Below are positions 5,431-45,563 of a stretch of DNA of 64,000 nt, one piece after another. Below the pieces are notes generated by a model. It made no database searches and was not told the DNA's origin. It was given only the letters and a program-made list of their open reading frames with translations. The position numbers and the translations under genes were made by a program. The stretch covers positions 9,733-73,732 of the forward strand of contig CALGVF010000082.1 of the NCBI GenBank assembly GCA_937920115.1, given 5' to 3'. Source of the stretch: an uncultured Clostridia bacterium (lineage in GTDB: Bacteria; Bacillota; Clostridia; Christensenellales; Borkfalkiaceae). Every line of letters begins with the position of its first letter. Position 1 is the first letter of the stretch.

Positions 5431-5452
5431 AAAAAAATTTGGTGAGCGAATT

Positions 5453-7945
5453 ATGGACTTATTTGCATTACAAGAAAAATATAAAAGCGTTCCGAATGAA
5501 CTGAAAATACTTAAGCGTTGGATTTGTTTTAAAGTTGAGGGGAGAGAGGACGGAAAGACAACAAAACGCCCGTATAATGCGTTAAACGGTAAATTTGCAA
5601 GGGTTAATGACGATTTGACATGGAGCAACTTTAATATAGCGTTAAACGGTTGTATTAAATATCATTGTGATGGATTAGGCTTTGTTCTTGGTAACGGTAT
5701 ATTTGGGATCGATCTCGATAATCACGCGGATAAAGACGGAAACATTGCAATGAACGACGAAGAGTTTAAAACCTTTTCCGAGCAGTTTATTTCCGCGCTC
5801 GATTCGTATACCGAATATTCGCAGAGCGGGAAAGGTGTACATATAATCTGCTCGGGGACATTGCCTGAGGGTAGTCGTAGAAAAGGTTGTGTCGAAATGT
5901 ACGATTCGGGACGGTTTTTCGCGTTTACGGGTAACGTTATCCGAAACACTACAATTAATGTTCGAACAGAACAGGTAAAACCTTTATGGGAAAAGTTTGT
6001 TCAATCGGAATATCAAGCAAATCGTCCTGCGATACAGCCTCGTCAGCCGAATCCTAACGCATTAATGTTGTCCGACGACGAAATAATCAAAGCCGCATAT
6101 GCGAGTAAAAACGGCGAAAAGTTTTACGCATATTATCACGACGGCGATATCTCTATGGATAACAACGATCAAAGCGCGGCAGATATGTCGTTCTGCAATC
6201 TTTTGGCGTGGTGGTGCAACTCCGACAAGGCTCAAATGGATAGAATATTCCGTAGTTCGGCTTTAATGCGCGATAAATGGGACCAATACAGAGGAAGTCA
6301 GACTTATGGCGAAATAACGCTTACAAAGGCGATTGCGGACTGCGTTGGCGGATATGCTTGCGACAGATCGTTTGCAAATGGTGACACTAAAGGATTAACA
6401 CCGCAAAGGAATTATACGATACGTAATGAGGTTGCGTCTGCGACTAAAGATAACGGAATGAACCTTAATGCGGACGGCGAGCCTATATTCAGGATTAAAA
6501 AGATTTTCAGACATTACGCATTAACCGATACGGGAAACGCCGAAAGGTTTTATGATTATTTCGGAGATTGCTTTAAGTATAACACGACCGATGAATGTTT
6601 TATGTTTTGGACAGGCAAAACATGGATAAAAGACAACGGAGATATTATTATTCGTAAGTATGCGGATAAAATGATTTCGATATTGCAATCGGAAGAGGAT
6701 GAGGTCGCAGGTCAGATAGAAGAAGCCAAAAGACAAGGCGAAAACGAAAAAGCGGCACAATACACTGTATTACTTGCCGAAATGATAAAAAATAAGAAGA
6801 AAATCTCAAACAAATCGGGAAAGGATTCAATGCTTTCCGAATTGCGACACATAAAGAAAATGGCTGTCGAGAATTCGATTTTTGACCAAGACCTTTATTT
6901 GCTTAATACGGATTCGGGCATTGTGGATTTACGGACAGGCGAAATAAAGCCGTTCGATAAAGAATTCTATATGTCGAAAAATACGAATACGGAAGTTTCG
7001 TTTGAAGAACCTACGGAATGGCTTAAATTCATTCGTAGCATATTCGATAGCGGTAATTTTATTGAAACAAATGAGATTGTAGATTCTATTCAGACGTTTT
7101 TAGGCTATTCATTGTCAGGCTCGACAAAAGAGCAGGTAATGTTTATGCTTTACGGCGACGGCTCAAACGGTAAATCGACTTTAACAGAGCAAATCGCAAA
7201 AATTTTAGGCGATTATGCGACAAGTATTCCGAGTAGCGTTTTAATGTCGCAAAAGAACGGGAATTCGGTTGCGGTTGAATATTCTTTGGCAAGACTTCGC
7301 GGCGTAAGATTTGTTGCTACCGGCGAAACGGACGAGGGCGCGAAGTTTGCAGAATCGCAAGTCAAGATCATAACGGGTAGCGATAAAATACAGGCTCAGT
7401 TCAAATACGGTCAGCCGTTTACTTATTATCCACACTATAAGATATGGATGTCGACAAATAACTTGCCGAACATAAAGGGTACGGATAACGGTATTTGGCG
7501 TAGATTAGAAACTGTTCCGTTTTTGCGGACTTTTACCGATAAAGAAAAAGACAAATTTTTGCCCGAAAAACTCGAAAAGGAAAGCGCGAAGATTCTCGGT
7601 TGGTGTATACAAGGCTTTATGAAATACTGGCAATTAGGCAACTTTATTCGTTGTCCGAGATTGCAGGAACTTAAAGACAGATATAAATATAAAATGGATA
7701 TGGTCGAGCAGTTCCTTGTCAATGAATGTACGTATGCGACAAACGCAAAAGTCGAGTGCAGAGAATTATATTCGCATTTCAAATCGTGGTTTAAGAATAA
7801 CACAGAATACGAAATGCGCGAAAGTATGTTCCGCGACAGACTTACCAAAAAAGGCATTAAGATTCAGTCGATGTCGAACGGTGTTCGTGTGTACGTCGGT
7901 ATAAGACTTAACGGCGCAAACATAGGGGGACACGACATATGGTAA
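5453..7945 (+). CDS. Bifunctional primase-polymerase / D5-P4-type replicative helicase
   Basis: 830 aa. N-terminal prim-pol-like region (GFVLGNGIFGIDLDNH). C-terminal SF3 NTPase with Walker A GDGSNGKST and Walker B-like RFVATGETDE. Confidence 0.88.
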   Translation: MDLFALQEKYKSVPNELKILKRWICFKVEGREDGKTTKRPYNALNGKFARVNDDLTWSNFNIALNGCIKYHCDGLGFVLGNGIFGIDLDNHADKDGNIAMNDEEFKTFSEQFISALDSYTEYSQSGKGVHIICSGTLPEGSRRKGCVEMYDSGRFFAFTGNVIRNTTINVRTEQVKPLWEKFVQSEYQANRPAIQPRQPNPNALMLSDDEIIKAAYASKNGEKFYAYYHDGDISMDNNDQSAADMSFCNLLAWWCNSDKAQMDRIFRSSALMRDKWDQYRGSQTYGEITLTKAIADCVGGYACDRSFANGDTKGLTPQRNYTIRNEVASATKDNGMNLNADGEPIFRIKKIFRHYALTDTGNAERFYDYFGDCFKYNTTDECFMFWTGKTWIKDNGDIIIRKYADKMISILQSEEDEVAGQIEEAKRQGENEKAAQYTVLLAEMIKNKKKISNKSGKDSMLSELRHIKKMAVENSIFDQDLYLLNTDSGIVDLRTGEIKPFDKEFYMSKNTNTEVSFEEPTEWLKFIRSIFDSGNFIETNEIVDSIQTFLGYSLSGSTKEQVMFMLYGDGSNGKSTLTEQIAKILGDYATSIPSSVLMSQKNGNSVAVEYSLARLRGVRFVATGETDEGAKFAESQVKIITGSDKIQAQFKYGQPFTYYPHYKIWMSTNNLPNIKGTDNGIWRRLETVPFLRTFTDKEKDKFLPEKLEKESAKILGWCIQGFMKYWQLGNFIRCPRLQELKDRYKYKMDMVEQFLVNECTYATNAKVECRELYSHFKSWFKNNTEYEMRESMFRDRLTKKGIKIQSMSNGVRVYVGIRLNGANIGGHDIW

Positions 7946-13552: not shown

Positions 13553-13609
13553 AAACATATAAAAACACAACTAAATGTATTGATTTTTACATATTTTAAA
13601 GATAAATTT

Positions 13610-14767
13610 ATGAAAACATATAAAACCGAAATAGAATTAAATCCATTACAGCAAGAAAAATTTTTGCGTACAATAGGTGTTTGTCGGTTTGTATATAATT
13701 TATTTTTACAAAAGAATAAAGAGTTATATACTAAAAATAAAGATACTAATTTACCTAAATATATAAATAATTTTGAATTCAGTAAATGGTTAAATAACGA
13801 ATTTATACCTGATAATCCTGAATATCAATGGATAAAAGAAGTATCAAGTAAAGCAGTACGACATGCTATAGATAACGCAAACAAAGCGTTCGCAAAATTC
13901 TTTGCACATAAAAGTAATTTTCCGCGATTTAAAAAGAAAAACAAAAACGATTGTAGTATGTATTTTGTTAAAACAGACAAAAACACTAAAATCAAATGCG
14001 AAAGGCATAGAATAAAAATACCTACGCTTGGTTGGTGTAAATTAAAAGAATTTGGTTATATACCAACTGATAAAACAATAACAAGCGGAACAATTATTAA
14101 ATATGCCGGAAGATTTTATATAAGTGTTTTAACAGATGAACCTATCAATATAAAATCTAATAATTCGCAAGACGGAATCGGGATTGACTTGGGCGTAAAG
14201 GATTTTGCGATACTGAGTGATGATACTAAATACAAAACACTTAAACAAACTAAATTAAATAAAAGGCTAAAACGAGAGCAGAAAGCAATCTCGAAAAAGT
14301 ATGAAACAAAAAAGAAAAATAAAAAGGAGGTTGCTACTTGTAAAAATATAGAAAAACAAATACTACGAGTACAAAAAATATATCGGCGAATAGCAAATAC
14401 TCGAAACGATTATCAAAATAAAATTATAAGCGAAATAATAAAACGAGAACCAAGTTTTATTACAATCGAAGATTTAAACGTTCGCGGTATGTTAAAGAAT
14501 AGGCATTTATCAAAAGCAATAGCAAATCAAGGATTTAATCAATTTGTTTCTAAACTTCAACACAAATGTGTTTTGAATGGAATAGAGTTAAGGCAAGTTG
14601 ATAGATTTTATCCGAGTTCTAAAATTTGCAGTGATTGCGGAAAGATAAAACAGGATTTAAAATTAAGCGATAGAATTTATATCTGTGAGTGCGGAAACAT
14701 AATAGATAGAGATTTGAACGCGGCAATAAATCTTAAGTATGCCAAAGAATATAAAGTAATCGCATAA
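13610..14767 (+). CDS. tnpB: TnpB RNA-guided endonuclease (IS605 OrfB family)
   Basis: The N-terminus KTYKTEIELNPLQQEKFLRTIGVCRFVYN is typical. RuvC D (GIDLGVKD), E (ITIEDLN) and D (IDRDLNAAINL) are present, plus the zinc ribbon CSDCG...CECG. Confidence 0.9.
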   Translation: MKTYKTEIELNPLQQEKFLRTIGVCRFVYNLFLQKNKELYTKNKDTNLPKYINNFEFSKWLNNEFIPDNPEYQWIKEVSSKAVRHAIDNANKAFAKFFAHKSNFPRFKKKNKNDCSMYFVKTDKNTKIKCERHRIKIPTLGWCKLKEFGYIPTDKTITSGTIIKYAGRFYISVLTDEPINIKSNNSQDGIGIDLGVKDFAILSDDTKYKTLKQTKLNKRLKREQKAISKKYETKKKNKKEVATCKNIEKQILRVQKIYRRIANTRNDYQNKIISEIIKREPSFITIEDLNVRGMLKNRHLSKAIANQGFNQFVSKLQHKCVLNGIELRQVDRFYPSSKICSDCGKIKQDLKLSDRIYICECGNIIDRDLNAAINLKYAKEYKVIA

Positions 14768-14905
14768 TCAAGCGACTTTATATATGTACTCGTGGCTAAC
14801 GAGGAATTAACGACTGTGGACTGCTATACAAACCAAAGTAGGTTTACGAAATGGGGCAGGATGAAGCAGTAATGGGAATATCGCGAGATACCCGAATTCT
14901 AAAGT
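14690..14905 (+). ncRNA. Candidate omega (re)RNA scaffold of TnpB; ends approximate
   Basis: Overlaps and follows the tnpB 3' end. Helices: CTCGT/ACGAG 14789-93/14799-803, AAACC/GGTTT 14830-34/14841-45, ACTGC/GCAGT 14820-24/14866-70. Confidence 0.45.
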
Positions 14906-41069: not shown

Positions 41070-42281
41070 ATGGCTGGTAACAATATAGAACTTATTACCA
41101 AGTATAGCACCAAAGCGTTCGACGAAGTTTACAAACAGGAATCGGTTACGGCGGCTTTGGACGTCCCCAACGCGTTTATGGAATTCACGGGTGCAAAGAC
41201 CGTTAAAATCAGAAAATTCCAGACGGGCGGACTTAACAGTTATTCGAGAAACAACAACGCGGGCGGTTACGGCGACACGAGAATTGATCAGCCTTCGGGC
41301 GATTATTATGGTTCTGCGGGATTCGGTTATAAGCAGACGAGCGCGAAAGTCGAATGGGAAGAAAGAACCCTTAAGATGGACAGAGCGGCGGCTATTCCGA
41401 TTGAGTATTTCGATAACGAGGAAGCGGGCGGCGACGTAGTATCGCTTACGGCATCCGAATTTATGAGAACCGTTATGGTCCCCGAAAACGACGCGTACAC
41501 GCTTTCGACGATTGCGGCGAATGCGGGTAAGGTTGTATCCGAGGCAATCGCAGACAATAAAGCCCTTGCGGCATTAAACAGCGCGTTCCTGTATTTCGAG
41601 GAAAACGAAGTTCCCGCAAACGATCAGGTTATCTTCGCGTCGCCGGCATTCATGAAGAAACTTCGTGAAACGACCGAAATGACGAGATTCCTCGGCGAGG
41701 ATGTAAAAGACAGAAAAGTCAATTACAAAATCACGAATTACGAAGGTAGAGATATTATCACGGTATCTCCGCAGAGGCTTCATACGGGCTTCAAGGCTTA
41801 CGAAGGCGGTTATGGATGGGCAAGCGGTTCTGCGGCTATCAACTTCCTTGCGGTAGCGAAATCCGCAGTCGTACACGTTAAAAAATTCGAGCAGTTGAAA
41901 ATCGTAAGCGGCGACATGAACCTTGCCGGTAACGGATTCGACGGTTACACGATTTATGCACGTATGTATTACGATGTGTTTGTACTCGACAACAAGAAAT
42001 ACGGTATTTACGCGAGCATTTCGGCGACTGCTGAAACCGCAGACGTCCCTATGGTAAAACTTGAAATCGAAACGGACACCGCGCATAAGATTACCAAGAT
42101 TACCACTACTCCTCCGAACACGCTTTGCTTTGTAGCGACGGGAACTAAGTCCGGTACTTCCTTGACTTCGCCTGTTCTTGCAAAAGTTGGCGATACTGTT
42201 GCTCAGGATGCTAAGTATTACGCAATTACTTCCGATAAGACCATTATCAGTAACGAAGTAAGCCCCAATCCTAAGGGTTAA
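41070..42281 (+). CDS. Major capsid protein with C-terminal Ig-like extension
   Basis: 403 aa, follows the scaffold, RBS taggag, terminator follows. The fold was not verifiable by eye. Confidence 0.7.
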   Translation: MAGNNIELITKYSTKAFDEVYKQESVTAALDVPNAFMEFTGAKTVKIRKFQTGGLNSYSRNNNAGGYGDTRIDQPSGDYYGSAGFGYKQTSAKVEWEERTLKMDRAAAIPIEYFDNEEAGGDVVSLTASEFMRTVMVPENDAYTLSTIAANAGKVVSEAIADNKALAALNSAFLYFEENEVPANDQVIFASPAFMKKLRETTEMTRFLGEDVKDRKVNYKITNYEGRDIITVSPQRLHTGFKAYEGGYGWASGSAAINFLAVAKSAVVHVKKFEQLKIVSGDMNLAGNGFDGYTIYARMYYDVFVLDNKKYGIYASISATAETADVPMVKLEIETDTAHKITKITTTPPNTLCFVATGTKSGTSLTSPVLAKVGDTVAQDAKYYAITSDKTIISNEVSPNPKG

Positions 42282-42315
42282 TTGCGTAACTCGGCGAACA
42301 ATTTAATCTAACACA

Positions 42316-42353
42316 AAAGGCTATCATTCCGAAAAGGTTTGGTAGCCTTTTTG
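42316..42353 (+). terminator. Rho-independent terminator after the capsid gene
   Basis: AAAGGCTA (42316-23) / TAGCCTTT (42343-50) followed by TTTG. Confidence 0.65.
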
Positions 42354-42383
42354 AAATATTTTTAAAATCTTTTTAGAAAACAC

Positions 42384-42412
42384 TTGACAAGATTTTAAGG
42401 TTGTGATAATAT
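42384..42412 (+). promoter_or_regulatory. Promoter of the ncRNA-tRNA unit
   Basis: TTGACA (42384-89), 17-nt spacer, TGaTAATAT (42404-12). Confidence 0.6.
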
Positions 42413-42419
42413 ATGCTTA

Positions 42420-43040
42420 GGAAATGGATTTTCGCATACATTATTCCGTTTCCCATTCCCCCTTACTCGCGCCGTCGCGTTCTTGATTTACTGATTGCAA
42501 GTTTTTTGCCCTTTGCTTAAATTTTTCTTGCGATACATTCGTTTATAACAGTAATTCTCCATTATTTAAAACCTTTCTGACGCGGCGGCGTGACGATATG
42601 CTGTATATGCTCGGAACAACGGGCGATACGGCACCGGCAGGCAGTTAAAGGGTTCTGCCTTTATTCGAGTTCAAAATTGCGTAGGGGAACTCGGAAAACA
42701 AAACCCTTTTTACGGAAGATTACTCAATCGGCAAAGAGAGGTCCTAAATGGGCGAATAGGGTCGGCACCTATATCTTCCGCCAAAGGTGTGTAGTTCCAC
42801 CTGATGTTACTCGGCTAAAATCGGGTACGGTACGGCTTTGGCTGTTCGTCTTGCTCCGTTAAGGCAGACAGAACGGGTTTTGAAAAGTTTTCCTCGGCAG
42901 AGCAGAGCGTAATGCCGACTTGCGGCGCGCAATAAAACAGAAATGCAAGTTGTCATTGGTTGGCTATTGTTGGTGTGGAGTAATTTCCCACACAAACGAT
43001 CGTGAATCCTCGGTTAAGGGTTGCAACCGAAAAACTTTTA
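42420..43040 (+). ncRNA. Large structured non-coding RNA candidate (ROOL/GOLLD-like context); ends approximate
   Basis: No credible ORF. GC-richer than the flanks, with at least 8 hand-pairable helices. Has its own promoter and a tRNA directly downstream. Confidence 0.5.
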
Positions 43041-43044
43041 TCAT

Positions 43045-43121
43045 CGCGGAATAGAGAAACCCGGAATCTCGCATGGCTCATAACCATGAAATTGCTGGTT
43101 CAAATCCGGCTTCCGCAACCA
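43045..43121 (+). tRNA. tRNA-Met (anticodon CAT) with initiator-like features; encoded CCA
   Basis: Full cloverleaf. Acceptor CGCGGAA/TTCCGCA (C1xA72 mismatch). D arm GAGA-AACCCGGAA-TCTC (A11:U24). Anticodon arm CATGG-CTCATAA-CCATG. T arm GCTGG-TTCAAAT-CCGGC. ACCA end. Confidence 0.85.
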
Positions 43122-43171
43122 TTCACAGTATCTTTGGCATAAACAAATTTTGACTCCGACATCAGGCAGGA

Positions 43172-43197
43172 AATCTCGTTGTGAAACGGGATTTTTT
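43172..43197 (+). terminator. Rho-independent terminator after the tRNA
   Basis: ATCTCGTT (43172-79) / AACGGGAT (43184-91) followed by TTTTTT. Confidence 0.65.
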
Positions 43198-43226
43198 GCT
43201 TTTGTGAAAAATTTTCCTAAAAACGC

Positions 43227-43255
43227 TTGCAAAACTGATAATTTTGTTGTATTAT
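43227..43255 (+). promoter_or_regulatory. Promoter
   Basis: TTGCAA (43227-32), 17-nt spacer, TATTAT (43250-55). Confidence 0.5.
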
Positions 43256-43290
43256 GATAATGAATAAAAATATTTTCAGGCGGTGTGGAT

Positions 43291-44112
43291 ATGGCAGACA
43301 CGAAAAAGCCAAACGTTGGCGAGGCTATATTAGGAAAAAACAAACAAGCGATCGGATCGTATCAGGAAGCCCCGGGCGGCGGAACGCCTTTGAAAGCGGG
43401 CGAGAAAGCACCGTCGAAAGAATGGGTTGCGGCGAATCGCAAAATGCAACCTCGAGATGACGATGGAAAGTTTACGTATAACGCGGCGAACGCGAAGCCT
43501 TTGGAATACGGACCGTCGAGAGGAAAGACAGTGCCGCCTTTTTTGCGTGGCGTTAAACTGACATATGTTGAAAAATCCGACGTAATTATGATCGAAGAGG
43601 GCAAAAGAGTCCTTGCGGGTATCGATATGAGCGTTGAGGAATTAATAAACAATTACAGGAATTATTCCGAACAGGAAGGCGGGTTCAAAAATCTTACGGG
43701 AGAAACAAAAGGCAAAACCGGTGCATACTCACAGAAAGAAAAAGCCGCAAAAGAAATAGGTTATGAGGGTCTGTTAAAGGCTCTTACGATTCAGGATATT
43801 ACCGAGGGATTTAAAGAGAATAAACAAGCCGGCAAATTGATCGGGGAATTTAAATATGTTAAAAAGGATGAAAATAAGCCCGAATCTAAGCAAGAAGTTG
43901 CGCCCGAAGCCCCGAAATCCGGCGTTACGAGCGAAGAAAAAGAACTCGCAAGTACAGATCCTGTTAAACTTTTTGCTACGAGCGATAACGCAAAGGCATT
44001 AAGACAGAAAGCCGAAGAAAAGGGCTTGAAATTATCTGGTAAAGCGGTAGCGAAAGCGATTGCCGATGGATATACGTGGGACGATTTGAATAAAGTTGTT
44101 GACGAGGCGTAA
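43291..44112 (+). CDS. Head-module protein, candidate internal/ejected protein
   Basis: 273 aa from the ATG at 43291. Lys/Glu-rich. DDDGKFTYN resembles the N-terminal HDKEGKFT motif of the next protein. Confidence 0.5.
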   Translation: MADTKKPNVGEAILGKNKQAIGSYQEAPGGGTPLKAGEKAPSKEWVAANRKMQPRDDDGKFTYNAANAKPLEYGPSRGKTVPPFLRGVKLTYVEKSDVIMIEEGKRVLAGIDMSVEELINNYRNYSEQEGGFKNLTGETKGKTGAYSQKEKAAKEIGYEGLLKALTIQDITEGFKENKQAGKLIGEFKYVKKDENKPESKQEVAPEAPKSGVTSEEKELASTDPVKLFATSDNAKALRQKAEEKGLKLSGKAVAKAIADGYTWDDLNKVVDEA

Positions 44113-44114
44113 TT

Positions 44115-45563
44115 ATGGTTACGAAATCAGACAACACAAAAGGTAATCCTTATCACGATAAAGAGGGGAAGTTTACAAAAAAAGAGGGTGCTTCTGCGGG
44201 TGGTGCGTCTATTGAATCTGAAAGCAGTGTTTCTACAAAGAAACTATCGTTGTCCGATATAGTAATTACACCGCAGGAAGTCGGGAAATTAAATCTTTTT
44301 TCTTCTGAAGATGACGATGCTGATTTTTGGGATAAGGTAGATACATATTCCGAAACAAAAACTGATTCTGCGAAAGAGGATTTGAAAACGTCTGAGAAAA
44401 CAGAACAGACAACGATGTCTGCAAATCCCGATGTTGTAACGGTTATTAATGGTCTTGATTCTAAGACTGTTTATGATACTGTATTAAAAGATTCGACATT
44501 GGATCCCGATAAAATTAAGAATGCATCGGAATCCGAATTAAAAGAACTTTTGCAAGCGCAGTCGGTTCTTGCCGAAAAGAAAAACGATAAAACGCTTGAA
44601 GAAGCAAATAATAAATACTTTTATAATTTATGGCAATATCCTGTAAAGCCGTCAGATTATCTGGATAAAAAGGATAAAATTCAGGCTAAAAAGGATTATT
44701 TCCTTTTCGATTATAAAGGTTCTGATAAACAAGAAAAACTTGCCTATCTTGATTCTTTTGTGGAATCGGGAGAAAAATACGCAAAAGCAAAAGAGATATA
44801 CGATTCCAAATATAAATCTGCGATTGAGATTGTAGATAAATTTGGGAACGGAATATACAGTTTTGAGCGTAAAGAGTCTGCAATATATATTGGTGCAAAG
44901 AATTATCCTGTCTTTAACGAGATAGCCGAAAGTAAGAAGATTTTCGGACCAAATTCCGAAACGGTGATAACAGCGTTAAAAAATTCAAATCCTACTGCAT
45001 TAAACGCGGTGATTGGATATACGGGTAGTTATTCAAGCATCAACGAGCCTTTAAGAGGTGTAACTTATTTCGGCAATAAAACAAGCAGAGAAGAGTTTAT
45101 TAAAAACGTTGAGGGAATGACTGAAGCCATAGAATTATCCACATACGATTTTGATTATTGGGTTCAGCGCGGGACGCATAGCGTAGTTGACGAAGAGAAC
45201 GGAGTGGATATAAACTCGAGCATGACGAGTGCCGAATTAAATGGCTTAGTCGGGAAAGAATTCGTACAGCGTTCGTTTTTCTCTGCGGGGGCGGCTAAAA
45301 ACACCGGGATGCCGACTCGTCCGATAATACTGAATGTTTATTGTCCGAAAGGCACAAAGGGTTTGTATGTAGAATCAATTTCGCAGTTTGCGGGCGAAAA
45401 TGAAATGATTCTCCAAAGGGGATATACGTACAAGATAACAAAAGCAGAAAAGGGTTCAAACGGAAGAATCTTCGTAGATTGCGAAGTTGTATTAGGCTCT
45501 GATAAAGATAAATATACTCACGAGCAACTTGTGGATATAGCAAATAAATACATAAAGGAGTAA
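44115..45563 (+). CDS. Protein with C-terminal ADP-ribosyltransferase (R-S-E, exoenzyme-type) domain
   Basis: N-terminal GNPYHDKEGKFT motif. ART motifs: YTGSYSSINEPLRG (Arg), FFSAG (Ser region), GENEMILQRG (ExE). Confidence 0.7.
   Translation: MVTKSDNTKGNPYHDKEGKFTKKEGASAGGASIESESSVSTKKLSLSDIVITPQEVGKLNLFSSEDDDADFWDKVDTYSETKTDSAKEDLKTSEKTEQTTMSANPDVVTVINGLDSKTVYDTVLKDSTLDPDKIKNASESELKELLQAQSVLAEKKNDKTLEEANNKYFYNLWQYPVKPSDYLDKKDKIQAKKDYFLFDYKGSDKQEKLAYLDSFVESGEKYAKAKEIYDSKYKSAIEIVDKFGNGIYSFERKESAIYIGAKNYPVFNEIAESKKIFGPNSETVITALKNSNPTALNAVIGYTGSYSSINEPLRGVTYFGNKTSREEFIKNVEGMTEAIELSTYDFDYWVQRGTHSVVDEENGVDINSSMTSAELNGLVGKEFVQRSFFSAGAAKNTGMPTRPIILNVYCPKGTKGLYVESISQFAGENEMILQRGYTYKITKAEKGSNGRIFVDCEVVLGSDKDKYTHEQLVDIANKYIKE

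What the first reader, a model, noticed from the sequence alone, without database searches (positions are those of the whole stretch)
42384..43197. Self-contained promoter-to-terminator unit encoding a ~620-nt highly structured RNA plus a tRNA, inside the head-gene cluster
About 1 kb lies between the capsid terminator (42316-42353) and the next protein gene (43291) with no credible ORF. The only candidates are a GTG-started Arg/Cys-rich 90-aa ORF and antisense shadows.

The segment has its own promoter (42384-42412) and terminator (43172-43197), and it ends in a perfect cloverleaf tRNA (43045-43121). The ~620 nt before the tRNA are visibly GC-richer than the flanks.

Helices I could pair by eye:
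- AGGCAG/CTGCCT, 42639-44 / 42655-60
- CGAGTTC/GAACTCG, 42666-72 / 42687-93
- CGGAAGAT/ATCTTCCG, 42713-20 / 42773-80 (long range)
- AGGTG/CACCT, 42785-89 / 42798-802
- CCGTT/AACGG, 42856-60 / 42872-76
- TCGGCA/TGCCGA, 42894-99 / 42913-18
- GTGTGG/CCACAC, 42973-78 / 42988-93
- A possible closing helix CGCGCCG/CGGCGCG, 42468-74 / 42923-29

The giant ornate RNAs ROOL and GOLLD are known to sit in Firmicutes phages and prophages next to tRNA genes. This locus has the same size class and context. I cannot match their consensus by eye, so it could be one of them or a new class.
Basis: partly seen in the sequence, partly recalled or inferred. Interest (0 to 1): 0.85.

Follow-up and report, generated by a model that had tools for sequence, protein, structure and literature searches.

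The report
New structured phage RNA beside tRNAs
This protein-free, strongly promoted unit in the head-gene cluster of an uncultured phage is not one giant RNA: it holds a previously undescribed ~290-nt structured RNA, then a broken tRNA-Ser, two variable hairpin modules and an intact tRNA-Met.

Summary
The promoter-to-terminator unit is real. It has a near-consensus extended -10 promoter (42384-42412), a tRNA-Met (43045-43121), a strong terminator hairpin (43164-43201) and no conserved ORF.

The "~620-nt RNA" is composite:
- **Module A (42420-42712)** is a structured RNA with six helices and a pseudoknot. Its plus strand folds with z = -3.9, the minus strand with z = -0.8. It occurs in 24 related contigs as five divergent sequence types. 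In the 3' domain, 99.6% of cells are paired and 10 of 26 pairs show compensatory changes. Two types have no tRNA at all, so module A is a gene in its own right.
- **42714-42783** is a tRNA-Ser(GCU) relic.
- **42784-43040** is cargo that comes and goes between relatives and folds no better than shuffled sequence.

Rfam 15 gives no match to ROOL, GOLLD or any other family, even at E<=10. The proposed closing helix is refuted, because its 5' strand belongs to the covarying helix P2.

Function is unknown. My best guess is a stable trans-acting RNA released by tRNA processing, possibly for counter-defence, since relatives carry an orphan abiF antitoxin motif in the same unit. This is a new RNA family with a narrow distribution and moderate interest.

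The parts
42315..42353 (+). Intrinsic terminator of the major-capsid gene. It is the upstream boundary of the unit.
   Evidence: Terminator scan. Fold -20.1 kcal/mol, z = -6.3. Conserved in relatives.
42384..42412 (+). Sigma-A/sigma-70 type promoter with an extended -10 (TTGACA-17-TG-n-TAATAT).
   Evidence: 10/12 plus TG. The same layout is present in all five RNA types.
42420..42712 (+). Module A: the constant, structured ~290-nt RNA (helices P1-P6 plus a pseudoknot). It is a new family.
   Evidence: z = -3.86 on the plus strand against -0.82 on the minus strand. It is 91-94.5% identical to relatives whose capsid 4-fold sites are 76-81% identical. Five sequence types keep all helices. Covariation. 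No Rfam hit.
42420..42453 (+). P1: 5'-terminal hairpin (42420-28 pairs with 42445-53), starting at or next to the predicted transcript start.
   Evidence: A hairpin with a different sequence sits at the same place in every type.
42467..42481 (+). P2 5' strand: long-range helix with 42579-42593 (15 bp, 3 G-U), closing a ~95-nt U-rich domain.
   Evidence: The helix is 11-15 bp in all five types with different sequences.
42579..42593 (+). P2 3' strand.
   Evidence: L023 carries U-A>U-G and U-G>C-G changes that keep pairing.
42495..42533 (+). P3 hairpin (42495-501 pairs with 42527-33) inside the P2 domain.
   Evidence: Compensatory U-A<->A-U occurs within type I, and G-C<->A-U between types.
42600..42632 (+). 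P4 hairpin (13 bp with one bulge).
   Evidence: 99-100% paired, 6 of 13 pairs with changes on both sides.
42639..42660 (+). Its loop at 42647-54 (AAAGGGUU) is the 5' strand of the pseudoknot.
   Evidence: 100% paired, with two one-sided G-U changes..
42666..42693 (+).
   Evidence: 100% paired, 4 of 7 pairs with changes on both sides.
42702..42709 (+). Pseudoknot 3' strand AACCCUUU, pairing with the P5 loop at 42647-54.
   Evidence: Type V has GGGG with CCCC. Type IV extends the pairing to 10 bp (AAAAAGGGU with ACCCUUUUU). Contrary evidence: L001 and L002 carry one C>A mismatch.
42714..42783 (+). tRNA-Ser(GCU) pseudogene. The acceptor stem, D arm, T arm and encoded CCA are kept, and the anticodon arm is deleted.
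   Evidence: An intact 92-94-nt tRNA-Ser sits at the homologous place in nine relatives. Alignment. ARAGORN and Rfam do not call the window copy. It still folds as a cloverleaf-like shape.
42784..42875 (+). Module C: variable spacer with local hairpins (42785-89/42798-802 and 42856-60/42872-76).
   Evidence: Partly or wholly missing in L012 and L031, with indels elsewhere. One compensatory change in the first hairpin. No excess folding energy.
42876..43040 (+). Module D: optional cargo module. Its hairpins at 42973-93 and 43011-32 carry some support.
   Evidence: Absent from L003, L004 and L006 and from types II-V. The GTGTGG/CCACAC hairpin has one compensatory and two wobble changes. TCGGCA/TGCCGA is not conserved.
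43045..43121 (+). tRNA-Met(CAU) with a non-standard 1:72 pair and an encoded CCA.
   Evidence: ARAGORN. Rfam tRNA 55.5 bits, with non-standard-pair marks at the first and last acceptor pair.
43164..43201 (+). Intrinsic terminator of the unit.
   Evidence: -21 kcal/mol, z = -6.0, followed by a U run. Conserved in type I. Equivalent terminators occur in the other types.

Best explanation
The locus is an autonomous noncoding "RNA island" in a lineage of uncultured ~75-kb phages. Their nearest cultured relatives infect Bacillota.

**Shown**
- A near-consensus host-type promoter precedes a protein-free segment that ends at an intrinsic terminator.
- The one constant gene is the first ~290 nt (42420-42712). 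It folds into a 5'-terminal hairpin, a long-range helix closing a U-rich domain, three further hairpins, and an H-type pseudoknot with a hairpin embedded in its third loop.
- Everything downstream is exchangeable cargo. In this window the cargo is a decayed tRNA-Ser(GCU), two hairpin modules and an intact tRNA-Met.
- In relatives the cargo can be an intact tRNA-Ser, a tRNA-Thr, an orphan abiF antitoxin-motif hairpin, a TnpB insertion sequence, or nothing.

**Inferred**
- The primary transcript is cut by the tRNA-processing enzymes: RNase P at 42713/42714 and 43044/43045, plus 3' trimming to the encoded CCA ends. This would release module A as a separate stable RNA, protected by its 5' hairpin. 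In the tRNA-less variants the terminator sets its 3' end.
- The tRNA-Ser relic, which keeps its acceptor and T arms, could still act as such a processing signal.

**Most speculative**
- Module A acts in trans by binding a protein through its invariant pseudoknot core (GGCAGU, AGGGU, CUUUAUUCGA, CGGRAAMCA followed by an ACCC run).
- Given its neighbours, the role may be host takeover or counter-defence.
For: - **Unit boundaries:**
- **Strand-specific structure of module A:** z = -3.86 against -0.82.
- **Purifying selection:** module A is 91-94.5% identical where capsid DNA is 86-90% and capsid 4-fold sites are 76-81%.
- **Five sequence types in 24 contigs keep P1-P6 and the pseudoknot in the same order.**
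- **3' domain covariation:** 99.6% of cells are paired, and 10 of 26 pairs have double changes. No shuffle out of 500 reaches these values, and slid controls give at most 45% paired (MAFFT-based version).
- **Pseudoknot:** supported by GGGG/CCCC in type V and by an extension to 10 bp in type IV.
- **Stand-alone variants:** types III and IV have no tRNA and run from promoter to terminator.
- **Cargo variability:**
- **tRNA-Ser:** intact in relatives, broken in the window and independently in L030, and interrupted in L029.
- **abiF motif in relatives:** 37.8 bits against a gathering score of 37. The abiF RNA is a protein-binding antitoxin (PMC12373285).
- **No conserved ORF:**
Against: - There are no expression data. 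The transcript, its ends and its processing are all inferred.
- Only five independent sequence types exist, so the covariation counts rest on few events. The alignment was fitted to the model.
- The pseudoknot core AGGGU/ACCCU is nearly invariant, and L001 and L002 carry a mismatch in it.
- P2 in type V has two C-A mismatches where the other types have U-G.
- Some hairpins in modules C and D also show compensatory changes. In type I phages the functional RNA could therefore extend beyond 42712.
- Sequence mosaicism complicates the selection argument: modules C and D are 98-99% identical to loci whose module A is 93% identical.
- Nothing points directly to a binding partner or a defence target. 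No antisense target above chance was found in the window.
Confidence: 0.7

Rival explanations
1. One reading: one ~620-nt ornate RNA spanning 42420-43040, of the ROOL/GOLLD class or a comparable giant RNA, with the tRNA attached.
For: - The size and the tRNA-adjacent phage context resemble ROOL and GOLLD (PMC12286853, PMC5737381).
- The whole segment folds with z = -4.3, though on only 20 shuffles.
- GOLLD RNAs can have variable regions and embedded tRNAs (PMC12286853).
- A few hairpins in modules C and D have compensatory changes.
Against: - There is no ROOL or GOLLD hit, even at E<=10.
- The fold signal comes from the first 293 nt. The last 261 nt give z = -1.05.
- Module D is absent in L003, L004 and L006. 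Module C is absent or truncated in L012 and L031. Both are absent from types II-V.
- The middle is a tRNA-Ser that is intact in relatives.
- The closing helix is refuted.
Confidence: 0.05
2. The segment is only a decaying tRNA array or neutral spacer. The helices are leftovers of dead tRNA genes, and no functional RNA other than tRNA-Met is present.
For: - The tRNA-Ser relic lies in the middle.
- A distant relative has 18 tRNAs plus a tmRNA at this position.
- The downstream modules turn over rapidly.
Against: - Module A has no tRNA-like hit.
- It is conserved about three times better than neutral sites.
- It keeps seven paired elements through five sequence types with compensatory changes.
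- It stands alone without any tRNA in types III and IV.
Confidence: 0.07
3. Module A is a cis-acting leader. It would control the transcription, stability or processing of the downstream tRNAs, or act like the HK022 put RNAs (processive antitermination) to carry polymerase through the terminator into the downstream virion genes.
For: - It lies directly after a strong promoter and directly upstream of the tRNAs. The tRNA-Ser starts 4 nt after the pseudoknot.
- It is followed by a terminator and then the next gene block.
Against: - The tRNA-less types III and IV keep module A.
- The identity of the tRNAs changes between types while module A stays.
- The downstream genes appear to have their own promoter: 43227-43255 in the window, with similar hexamers read by eye in types II and III.
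- At ~290 nt it is much larger than known put or EAR-type elements. That comparison rests on my own knowledge.
Confidence: 0.12
4. The conserved inverted repeats act at the DNA level, for example as a replication origin, packaging site or recombination site, rather than as RNA.
For: GC-rich long inverted repeats (P2) enclose an AT-rich ~95-bp core, which resembles some origins.
Against: - The pairing is strand-specific. There are many G-U pairs, and changes between G-U and Watson-Crick pairs, that would be A-C mismatches on the other strand. This fits the minus-strand z of -0.82 against -3.86.
- A consensus promoter is positioned so that P1 begins at the transcript start in all types.
Confidence: 0.03

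Closest known systems
ROOL RNA (Rfam RF03087)
   Same: Both are structured noncoding RNAs of phages and prophages, often near tRNA genes, with pseudoknots and no known function (PMC5737381, PMC12286853).
   Different: - There is no covariance-model match.
- Module A is about half the size (~290 nt against ~580 nt).
[quoted passage not shown]
- Multimer or cage formation is untested.
GOLLD RNA (Rfam)
   Same: Both are phage or prophage RNAs next to tRNA islands, sometimes downstream of or containing a tRNA, with a conserved part and a variable part (PMC12286853).
   Different: - There is no covariance-model match.
- Here the conserved part is the 5' ~290 nt and the variable part is 3'. GOLLD has a conserved 3' region and a variable 5' region.
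- GOLLD is more than 800 nt long.
Stable RNAs of the phage T4 tRNA cluster (rnaC and rnaD, 'species 1 and 2' RNAs). This comparison is from my own knowledge and was not checked here.
   Same: Small stable phage RNAs of unknown function are co-transcribed with phage tRNAs and released by tRNA-processing enzymes.
   Different: There is no sequence relationship. The T4 RNAs are ~120-140 nt and tRNA-like. Module A is ~290 nt with a pseudoknot core and also occurs without tRNAs.
abiF motif RNA (RF03085), an RNA antitoxin of AbiF, and phage-borne antitoxin mimics
   Same: Relatives of this window carry an abiF-motif hairpin in the same transcription unit, just upstream of the tRNA-Met. The abiF RNA neutralises its toxin by direct binding (PMC12373285). 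This gives a precedent for protein-binding decoy RNAs in this island.
   Different: The window itself lacks the abiF hairpin. Module A has no similarity to the motif. A decoy role for module A is conjecture.
Bacterial tRNA operons with spacer or leader RNAs
   Same: A single promoter and terminator flank several small RNA genes that are separated by RNase P and 3' processing.
   Different: The leader here is longer than the tRNAs, more conserved than they are, and persists when they are lost.

Membership tests
ROOL (RF03087) | Match to the Rfam covariance model at or above the gathering score. | tested here: not met
   cmscan of the whole window at gathering threshold, and of 42250-43300 at E<=10 with permissive filters, gave no ROOL hit.
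ROOL (RF03087) | [quoted passage not shown] | tested here: not met
   The conserved unit is ~290 nt with one multistem domain and one candidate pseudoknot.
GOLLD (Rfam) | Match to the Rfam covariance model, with a universally conserved 3' region. | tested here: not met
   No hit. Here the 3' part is the variable part.
Other large or catalytic RNAs in Rfam 15 (HEARO, raiA, OLE, group I/II introns, tmRNA, RNase P, 6S, self-cleaving ribozymes) | Covariance-model match. | tested here: not met
   Only chance-level hits were found, to eukaryotic miRNA, lncRNA and snoRNA models and the like. The related loci showed no such family either.
tRNA (RF00005), 43045-43121 | Cloverleaf with a 7-nt anticodon loop, detected by ARAGORN and the Rfam model. 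| tested here: met
   tRNA-Met(CAT). 55.5 bits against a gathering score of 29.
tRNA-Ser(GCU), 42714-42783 | Complete cloverleaf with an anticodon arm and a long variable arm. | tested here: not met
   ARAGORN and Rfam do not call it. The anticodon arm is missing relative to the intact tRNA-Ser of relatives. The T-loop differs from the relatives at two positions. By my reading of the standard numbering these are positions 54 and 58.
tRNA-Ser(GCU), 42714-42783 | Positional and sequence homology to a bona fide tRNA-Ser gene. | tested here: met
   nhmmer and blastn hits to the tRNA-Ser of all type I relatives at the same place. It is therefore a pseudogene, not a member.
abiF motif RNA (RF03085) | Covariance-model match at or above the gathering score. 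| tested here: not met
   It is absent from the window. It is met in relatives L002, L014, L029 and L030 at 37.8 bits against 37.
New family 'module A' (defined here) | P1-P6 plus the pseudoknot in the same order, with the invariant core GGCAGU..AGGGU..CUG(Y)CUUUAUUCGA..CGGRAAMCA followed by an ACCC run, located after the capsid terminator behind a consensus promoter. | tested here: met
   Model R1 scores the window at 142.8 bits and types II-V at 82-106 bits. Helix table.
New family 'module A' (defined here) | Expression as a discrete stable RNA. | not testable with these tools

The most novel reading that the evidence does not exclude
The island is an RNA-only counter-defence cassette, and module A is its core. 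Module A would be a decoy that mimics, or sequesters the protein of, a host RNA-dependent defence or toxin-antitoxin system. It would be co-transcribed with replacement tRNAs for anticodon nucleases and, in relatives, with an orphan AbiF-antitoxin hairpin. An alternative reading of similar novelty is that the complementary P5-loop and ACCC strands pair between molecules, so the RNA assembles into a multimer as ROOL and GOLLD do.
Probability: 0.2. Interest if true: 0.8.

Novelty: new variant of a known kind. Interest (0 to 1): 0.5.

Why it matters
- **A new RNA family.** It adds a well-supported structured RNA family, absent from Rfam 15, to the short list of sizeable phage noncoding RNAs that travel with tRNA genes (ROOL, GOLLD, the T4 stable RNAs). 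None of those has a known function.
- **A natural experiment.** The same RNA occurs alone, with different tRNAs, with a dying tRNA, with an orphan abiF antitoxin motif, or with a TnpB element. This separates the constant functional core from its cargo.
- **A testable direction.** The co-location with an antitoxin-motif hairpin and tRNAs suggests RNA-based counter-defence.
- **A caution for reading sequence by eye.** A run of convincing hairpins next to a tRNA can be a mosaic of a real RNA, a tRNA pseudogene and turnover-prone spacers.
- **Limits.** The family is confined, as far as sampled, to one uncultured phage lineage, and there are no expression or functional data.

Tried and rejected
- **Rfam.** Searches at gathering threshold and at E<=10 found nothing but the tRNA and chance hits.
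- **GenBank phages.** DNA searches found no relative. A capsid protein search found at most 28% identity, to phages of Bacillota.
- **Distant capsid relatives.** nhmmer with single sequences missed types II-V, which were found by eye and by pattern. Model R1 found no copy in the distant loci L005-L011, L025, L026 and L038-L045.
- **Bacterial genomes.** The first pattern scan returned nothing. The looser scan returned six hits in unrelated phyla, all rejected by the model as chance. No host or prophage copy was found.
- **Metagenomes.** The pattern scan returned only further type I copies.
- **Paralogues and targets in the window.** No paralogue was found. Antisense matches to the invariant single-stranded segments were at chance level.
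- **Coding potential.** The 35-aa and 90-aa ORFs, and a 181-aa ORF called in L052, are not conserved in frame.
- **Considered and rejected:**
  - HDV-like or theta ribozymes and pistol: the order of paired strands differs, and Rfam gives no hit.
  - TnpB omega-RNA: module A is not at the 3' end of a tnpB gene, and R1 finds nothing next to the window's own TnpB.
  - tmRNA-like two-piece RNA: relatives show that the relic is an ordinary tRNA-Ser.
  - A DNA-level element: the pairing is strand-specific.
- **Not done.** A full-length covariance model was not built, because a ~300-position model exceeds the calibration limit. The 5' domain was therefore assessed with a scripted helix table.
Full report
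**1. What is at the coordinates**

The window is part of a phage genome. It carries a primase, a helicase, a large terminase, a portal, a major head protein and an ADP-ribosyltransferase. The closest cultured phages share at most 28% capsid identity, and nearly all of the listed ones infect Bacillota.

About 1 kb lies between the capsid gene (41070-42281) and the next conserved gene (ATG at 43291). Within that gap:
- The promoter scan's best site is TTGACA-17-TAATAT with an upstream TG, at 42384-42412.
- ARAGORN and Rfam agree on a tRNA-Met(CAT) at 43045-43121.
- The segment 43164-43201 folds into a 17-bp hairpin followed by a U run (-21 kcal/mol, z = -6.0).
- The capsid gene has its own terminator.

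The ORFs in the gap are not conserved. Relatives carry 1-, 3- and 25-nt indels inside them, and tblastn splits them between frames.

**2. It is not ROOL or GOLLD**

cmscan against Rfam 15 gives only the tRNA in this region at gathering threshold. At E<=10 with permissive filters on 42250-43300, it adds only chance-level matches to eukaryotic miRNA, lncRNA and snoRNA models and the like. Phage and tRNA-island context is indeed typical of ROOL and GOLLD (PMC12286853, PMC5737381). That is a resemblance of setting, not membership.

**3. Relatives show that the ~620 nt are a mosaic**

I retrieved related loci in four ways:
- capsid-based retrieval from IMG/VR;
- capsid homologues at 84-92% and 57-61% identity;
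- pattern scans;
- a search with the downstream gene.

In nine close relatives ARAGORN finds an intact 92-94-nt tRNA-Ser(GCU) exactly where the window has 42714-42783. The window copy lacks the anticodon arm. The deletion lies between two AGGTC direct repeats that are visible in the relatives. The T-loop also differs from the relatives at two positions. Neither ARAGORN nor Rfam calls the window copy. The relic still folds as a cloverleaf-like shape with acceptor, D and T arms.

The tRNA-Ser has been damaged independently in other relatives:
- L030 lost its 5' 65 nt.
- L029 has a 443-nt insertion in the anticodon loop. The insertion carries fragments of a PD-(D/E)XK endonuclease ORF.

Downstream of the tRNA-Ser the content varies:
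- Module D (42876-43040) is absent from L003, L004 and L006.
- Module C is partly replaced in L012, L013 and L031.
- A segment absent from the window lies before the tRNA-Met in most relatives.
- A 375-aa TnpB element replaces the tRNA-Met in L001, L012 and L013.

**4. The constant part is a real structured RNA**

*Thermodynamics and conservation.* The segment 42420-42712 (module A) is present in every related locus.
- It folds with z = -3.86 (0 of 200 shuffles) on the plus strand, against -0.82 on the minus strand.
- The segment 42784-43044 gives -1.05. The -4.3 obtained for the whole 625 nt therefore comes from module A.
- Against type I relatives, module A is 91-94.5% identical. The adjacent capsid gene is 86-90% identical, and its 4-fold degenerate sites are 76-81% identical.

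*Five sequence types.*

| Type | Loci | Downstream of module A |
|---|---|---|
| I | window and 13 further contigs | tRNA-Ser, modules, tRNA-Met or TnpB |
| II | L016, L018, L023, L024, L055, L056 | tRNA-Thr |
| III | L027 | no tRNA |
| IV | L052 | no tRNA |
| V | L053, L054 | tRNA-Thr |

*Helices.* All five types keep the same consensus promoter, with a 5'-terminal hairpin P1 starting a few nucleotides after the -10 element. They also keep these elements in the same order (window coordinates):
- an 11-15-bp long-range helix P2 (42467-81 with 42579-93), closing a U-rich domain that contains hairpin P3 (42495-501 with 42527-33);
- hairpin P4 (42600-32);
- hairpin P5 (42639-60);
- hairpin P6 (42666-93);
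- a stretch (42702-09) complementary to the P5 loop (42647-54).

*Covariation.*
- P1, P2 and P3 have different sequences in different types but always pair. P3 shows a U-A to A-U swap even within type I.
- For P4-P6, the MAFFT alignment gives 97% paired cells and 7 pairs with double changes.
- The model-based alignment of 21 sequences gives 99.6% paired cells and 10 of 26 pairs with double changes. No shuffle out of 500 reaches these values, and slid controls give at most 45% paired.
- Many changes are G-U to Watson-Crick switches. These are meaningful only on the plus strand as RNA.

*Pseudoknot.* It gains support from type V (GGGG in the loop with CCCC downstream) and from type IV (AAAAAGGGU with ACCCUUUUU). 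Its AGGGU/ACCCU core is otherwise invariant, and L001 and L002 carry one mismatch in it.

*Caveats.* There are only five independent types. The alignment is fitted to the model. P2 of type V has two C-A mismatches.

**5.

| Helix | Verdict |
|---|---|
| AGGCAG/CTGCCT | This is P5 and is supported |
| CGAGTTC/GAACTCG | This is P6 and is supported |
| CGGAAGAT/ATCTTCCG | Acceptor stem of the tRNA-Ser relic |
| AGGTG/CACCT | One compensatory change |
| CCGTT/AACGG | Tolerated by one wobble change, but truncated in L003, L004 and L006 |
| TCGGCA/TGCCGA | Perfect only in the window and mismatched elsewhere |
| GTGTGG/CCACAC | One compensatory and two wobble changes |
| Closing helix 42468-74/42923-29 | Refuted by P2 and by the absence of module D in several relatives |

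**6. Distribution**

- Model R1 finds no copy in more distant relatives. These have no gap, or tRNAs only, or in one case 18 tRNAs plus a tmRNA.
- There is no second copy in the window.
- Pattern scans of 185,579 species-representative bacterial and archaeal genomes gave nothing, or chance hits that the model rejected.
- As far as sampled, the family belongs to one uncultured phage lineage.

**7. How it probably works**

*Shown.* This is an autonomous unit with a near-perfect host-type promoter and a terminator. It contains one constant structured RNA and variable small-RNA cargo.

*Inferred.* The tRNAs, and probably the acceptor/T-arm relic, are cut out by RNase P and 3' trimming. This would free module A, whose 5' hairpin should stabilise it. 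In types III and IV the terminator defines the RNA instead.

*What the pattern suggests.* The helices drift while four single-stranded or loop segments stay invariant. That pattern is typical of an RNA recognised by a protein or held by tertiary contacts.

*A hint at function.* Several relatives carry, in the same transcript and just upstream of the tRNA-Met, a hairpin that meets the Rfam abiF model (37.8 bits against 37). Its loop is conserved and its stem covaries. abiF-motif RNA neutralises the AbiF toxin by direct binding (PMC12373285). Here no AbiF gene is adjacent, so the hairpin looks like a phage-borne antitoxin mimic. Together with the tRNAs, this makes a counter-defence role for the island plausible. 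For module A itself that role is conjecture, at roughly 20-30%.

*Alternatives.* A cis role in tRNA expression or antitermination is less likely, because the tRNA-less variants keep module A. The next genes also appear to have their own promoter: it was scanned in the window and read by eye in types II and III.

**8. Novelty and score**

The unit is a new structured RNA family of a known general kind: phage noncoding RNAs that accompany tRNA genes and have no known function. A large IMG/VR survey reported more than 8,000 unnamed candidate motifs of 29-151 nt (PMC10690425). Parts of this RNA could be among them, and I could not check.

Interest is moderate. The structural evidence is good, and the natural cargo variation is informative.

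Noticed in passing
window 13580-14872: A TnpB-type ORF lies at 13580-14767. It matches HTH_OrfB_IS605, OrfB_IS605 and Cas12f1-like_TNB and phrog_506. The Rfam RAGATH-18 match at 14813-14872 (60 bits) follows 46 nt downstream. That is where the omega-RNA or right end of an IS605-family element would be expected.
   Followed up: partly
L002 6044-6080; L014 5566-5602; L029 6425-6461; L030 2262-2298: An orphan abiF-motif hairpin (RF03085, 37.8 bits against a gathering score of 37, conserved loop GCCUCU..AC.AUGC) lies just upstream of the tRNA-Met in close relatives. No AbiF gene is adjacent. It may be a phage-borne antitoxin mimic. It is absent from the window.
   Followed up: partly
L029 5652-6094: The tRNA-Ser(GCU) of this relative is split in its anticodon loop by a 443-nt insertion. 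The insertion carries two ORF fragments that match the PD-(D/E)XK endonuclease family PF11645. No group I intron model matches. The window's deletion removes the same arm.
   Followed up: partly
L001 6137-7264; L012 3151-4278; L013 5756-6883: A 375-aa TnpB element occupies the place of the abiF hairpin and the tRNA-Met in three relatives. It has replaced them rather than simply inserting.
   Followed up: partly
window 43045-43121: The tRNA-Met has a non-standard 1:72 pair: C-A in the window and A-A in relatives (flagged in the Rfam alignments). From my own knowledge, that is a hallmark of bacterial initiator tRNA. Its anticodon stem has only two of the three G-C pairs typical of initiators.
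   Followed up: no
L011 6760-8875: A distant relative (44% capsid identity) has 17 tRNA genes plus a tmRNA gene downstream of its capsid gene. L025 has three tRNAs there. The site appears to be a general hotspot for small-RNA genes in this phage group.
   Followed up: no
window 43011-43032: The last hairpin of module D (TCGGTT-AAGGGTTGC-AACCGA) carries AAGGGUU in its loop. That is the same motif as the P5 loop of module A, and it is equally complementary to 42702-09. The G-rich start of the loop is kept while the rest varies in relatives.
   Followed up: no
window 43227-43255 and 43291-45563: A second promoter-like site, TTGCAA-17-TATTAT, precedes a conserved 273-aa protein with no Pfam or PHROG match. 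That protein has an invariant QPRD..G.FTYN....KPL.YGPSRG.T.PPF motif. A 482-aa ADP-ribosyltransferase-like protein follows.
   Followed up: no
L029 about 5445-5470: This relative has a 24-nt deletion inside the U-rich P2 domain of module A. The deletion removes the 3' strand of the type I-specific TTACTG/CAGTAA extension of P3. That part of the RNA seems dispensable.
   Followed up: no
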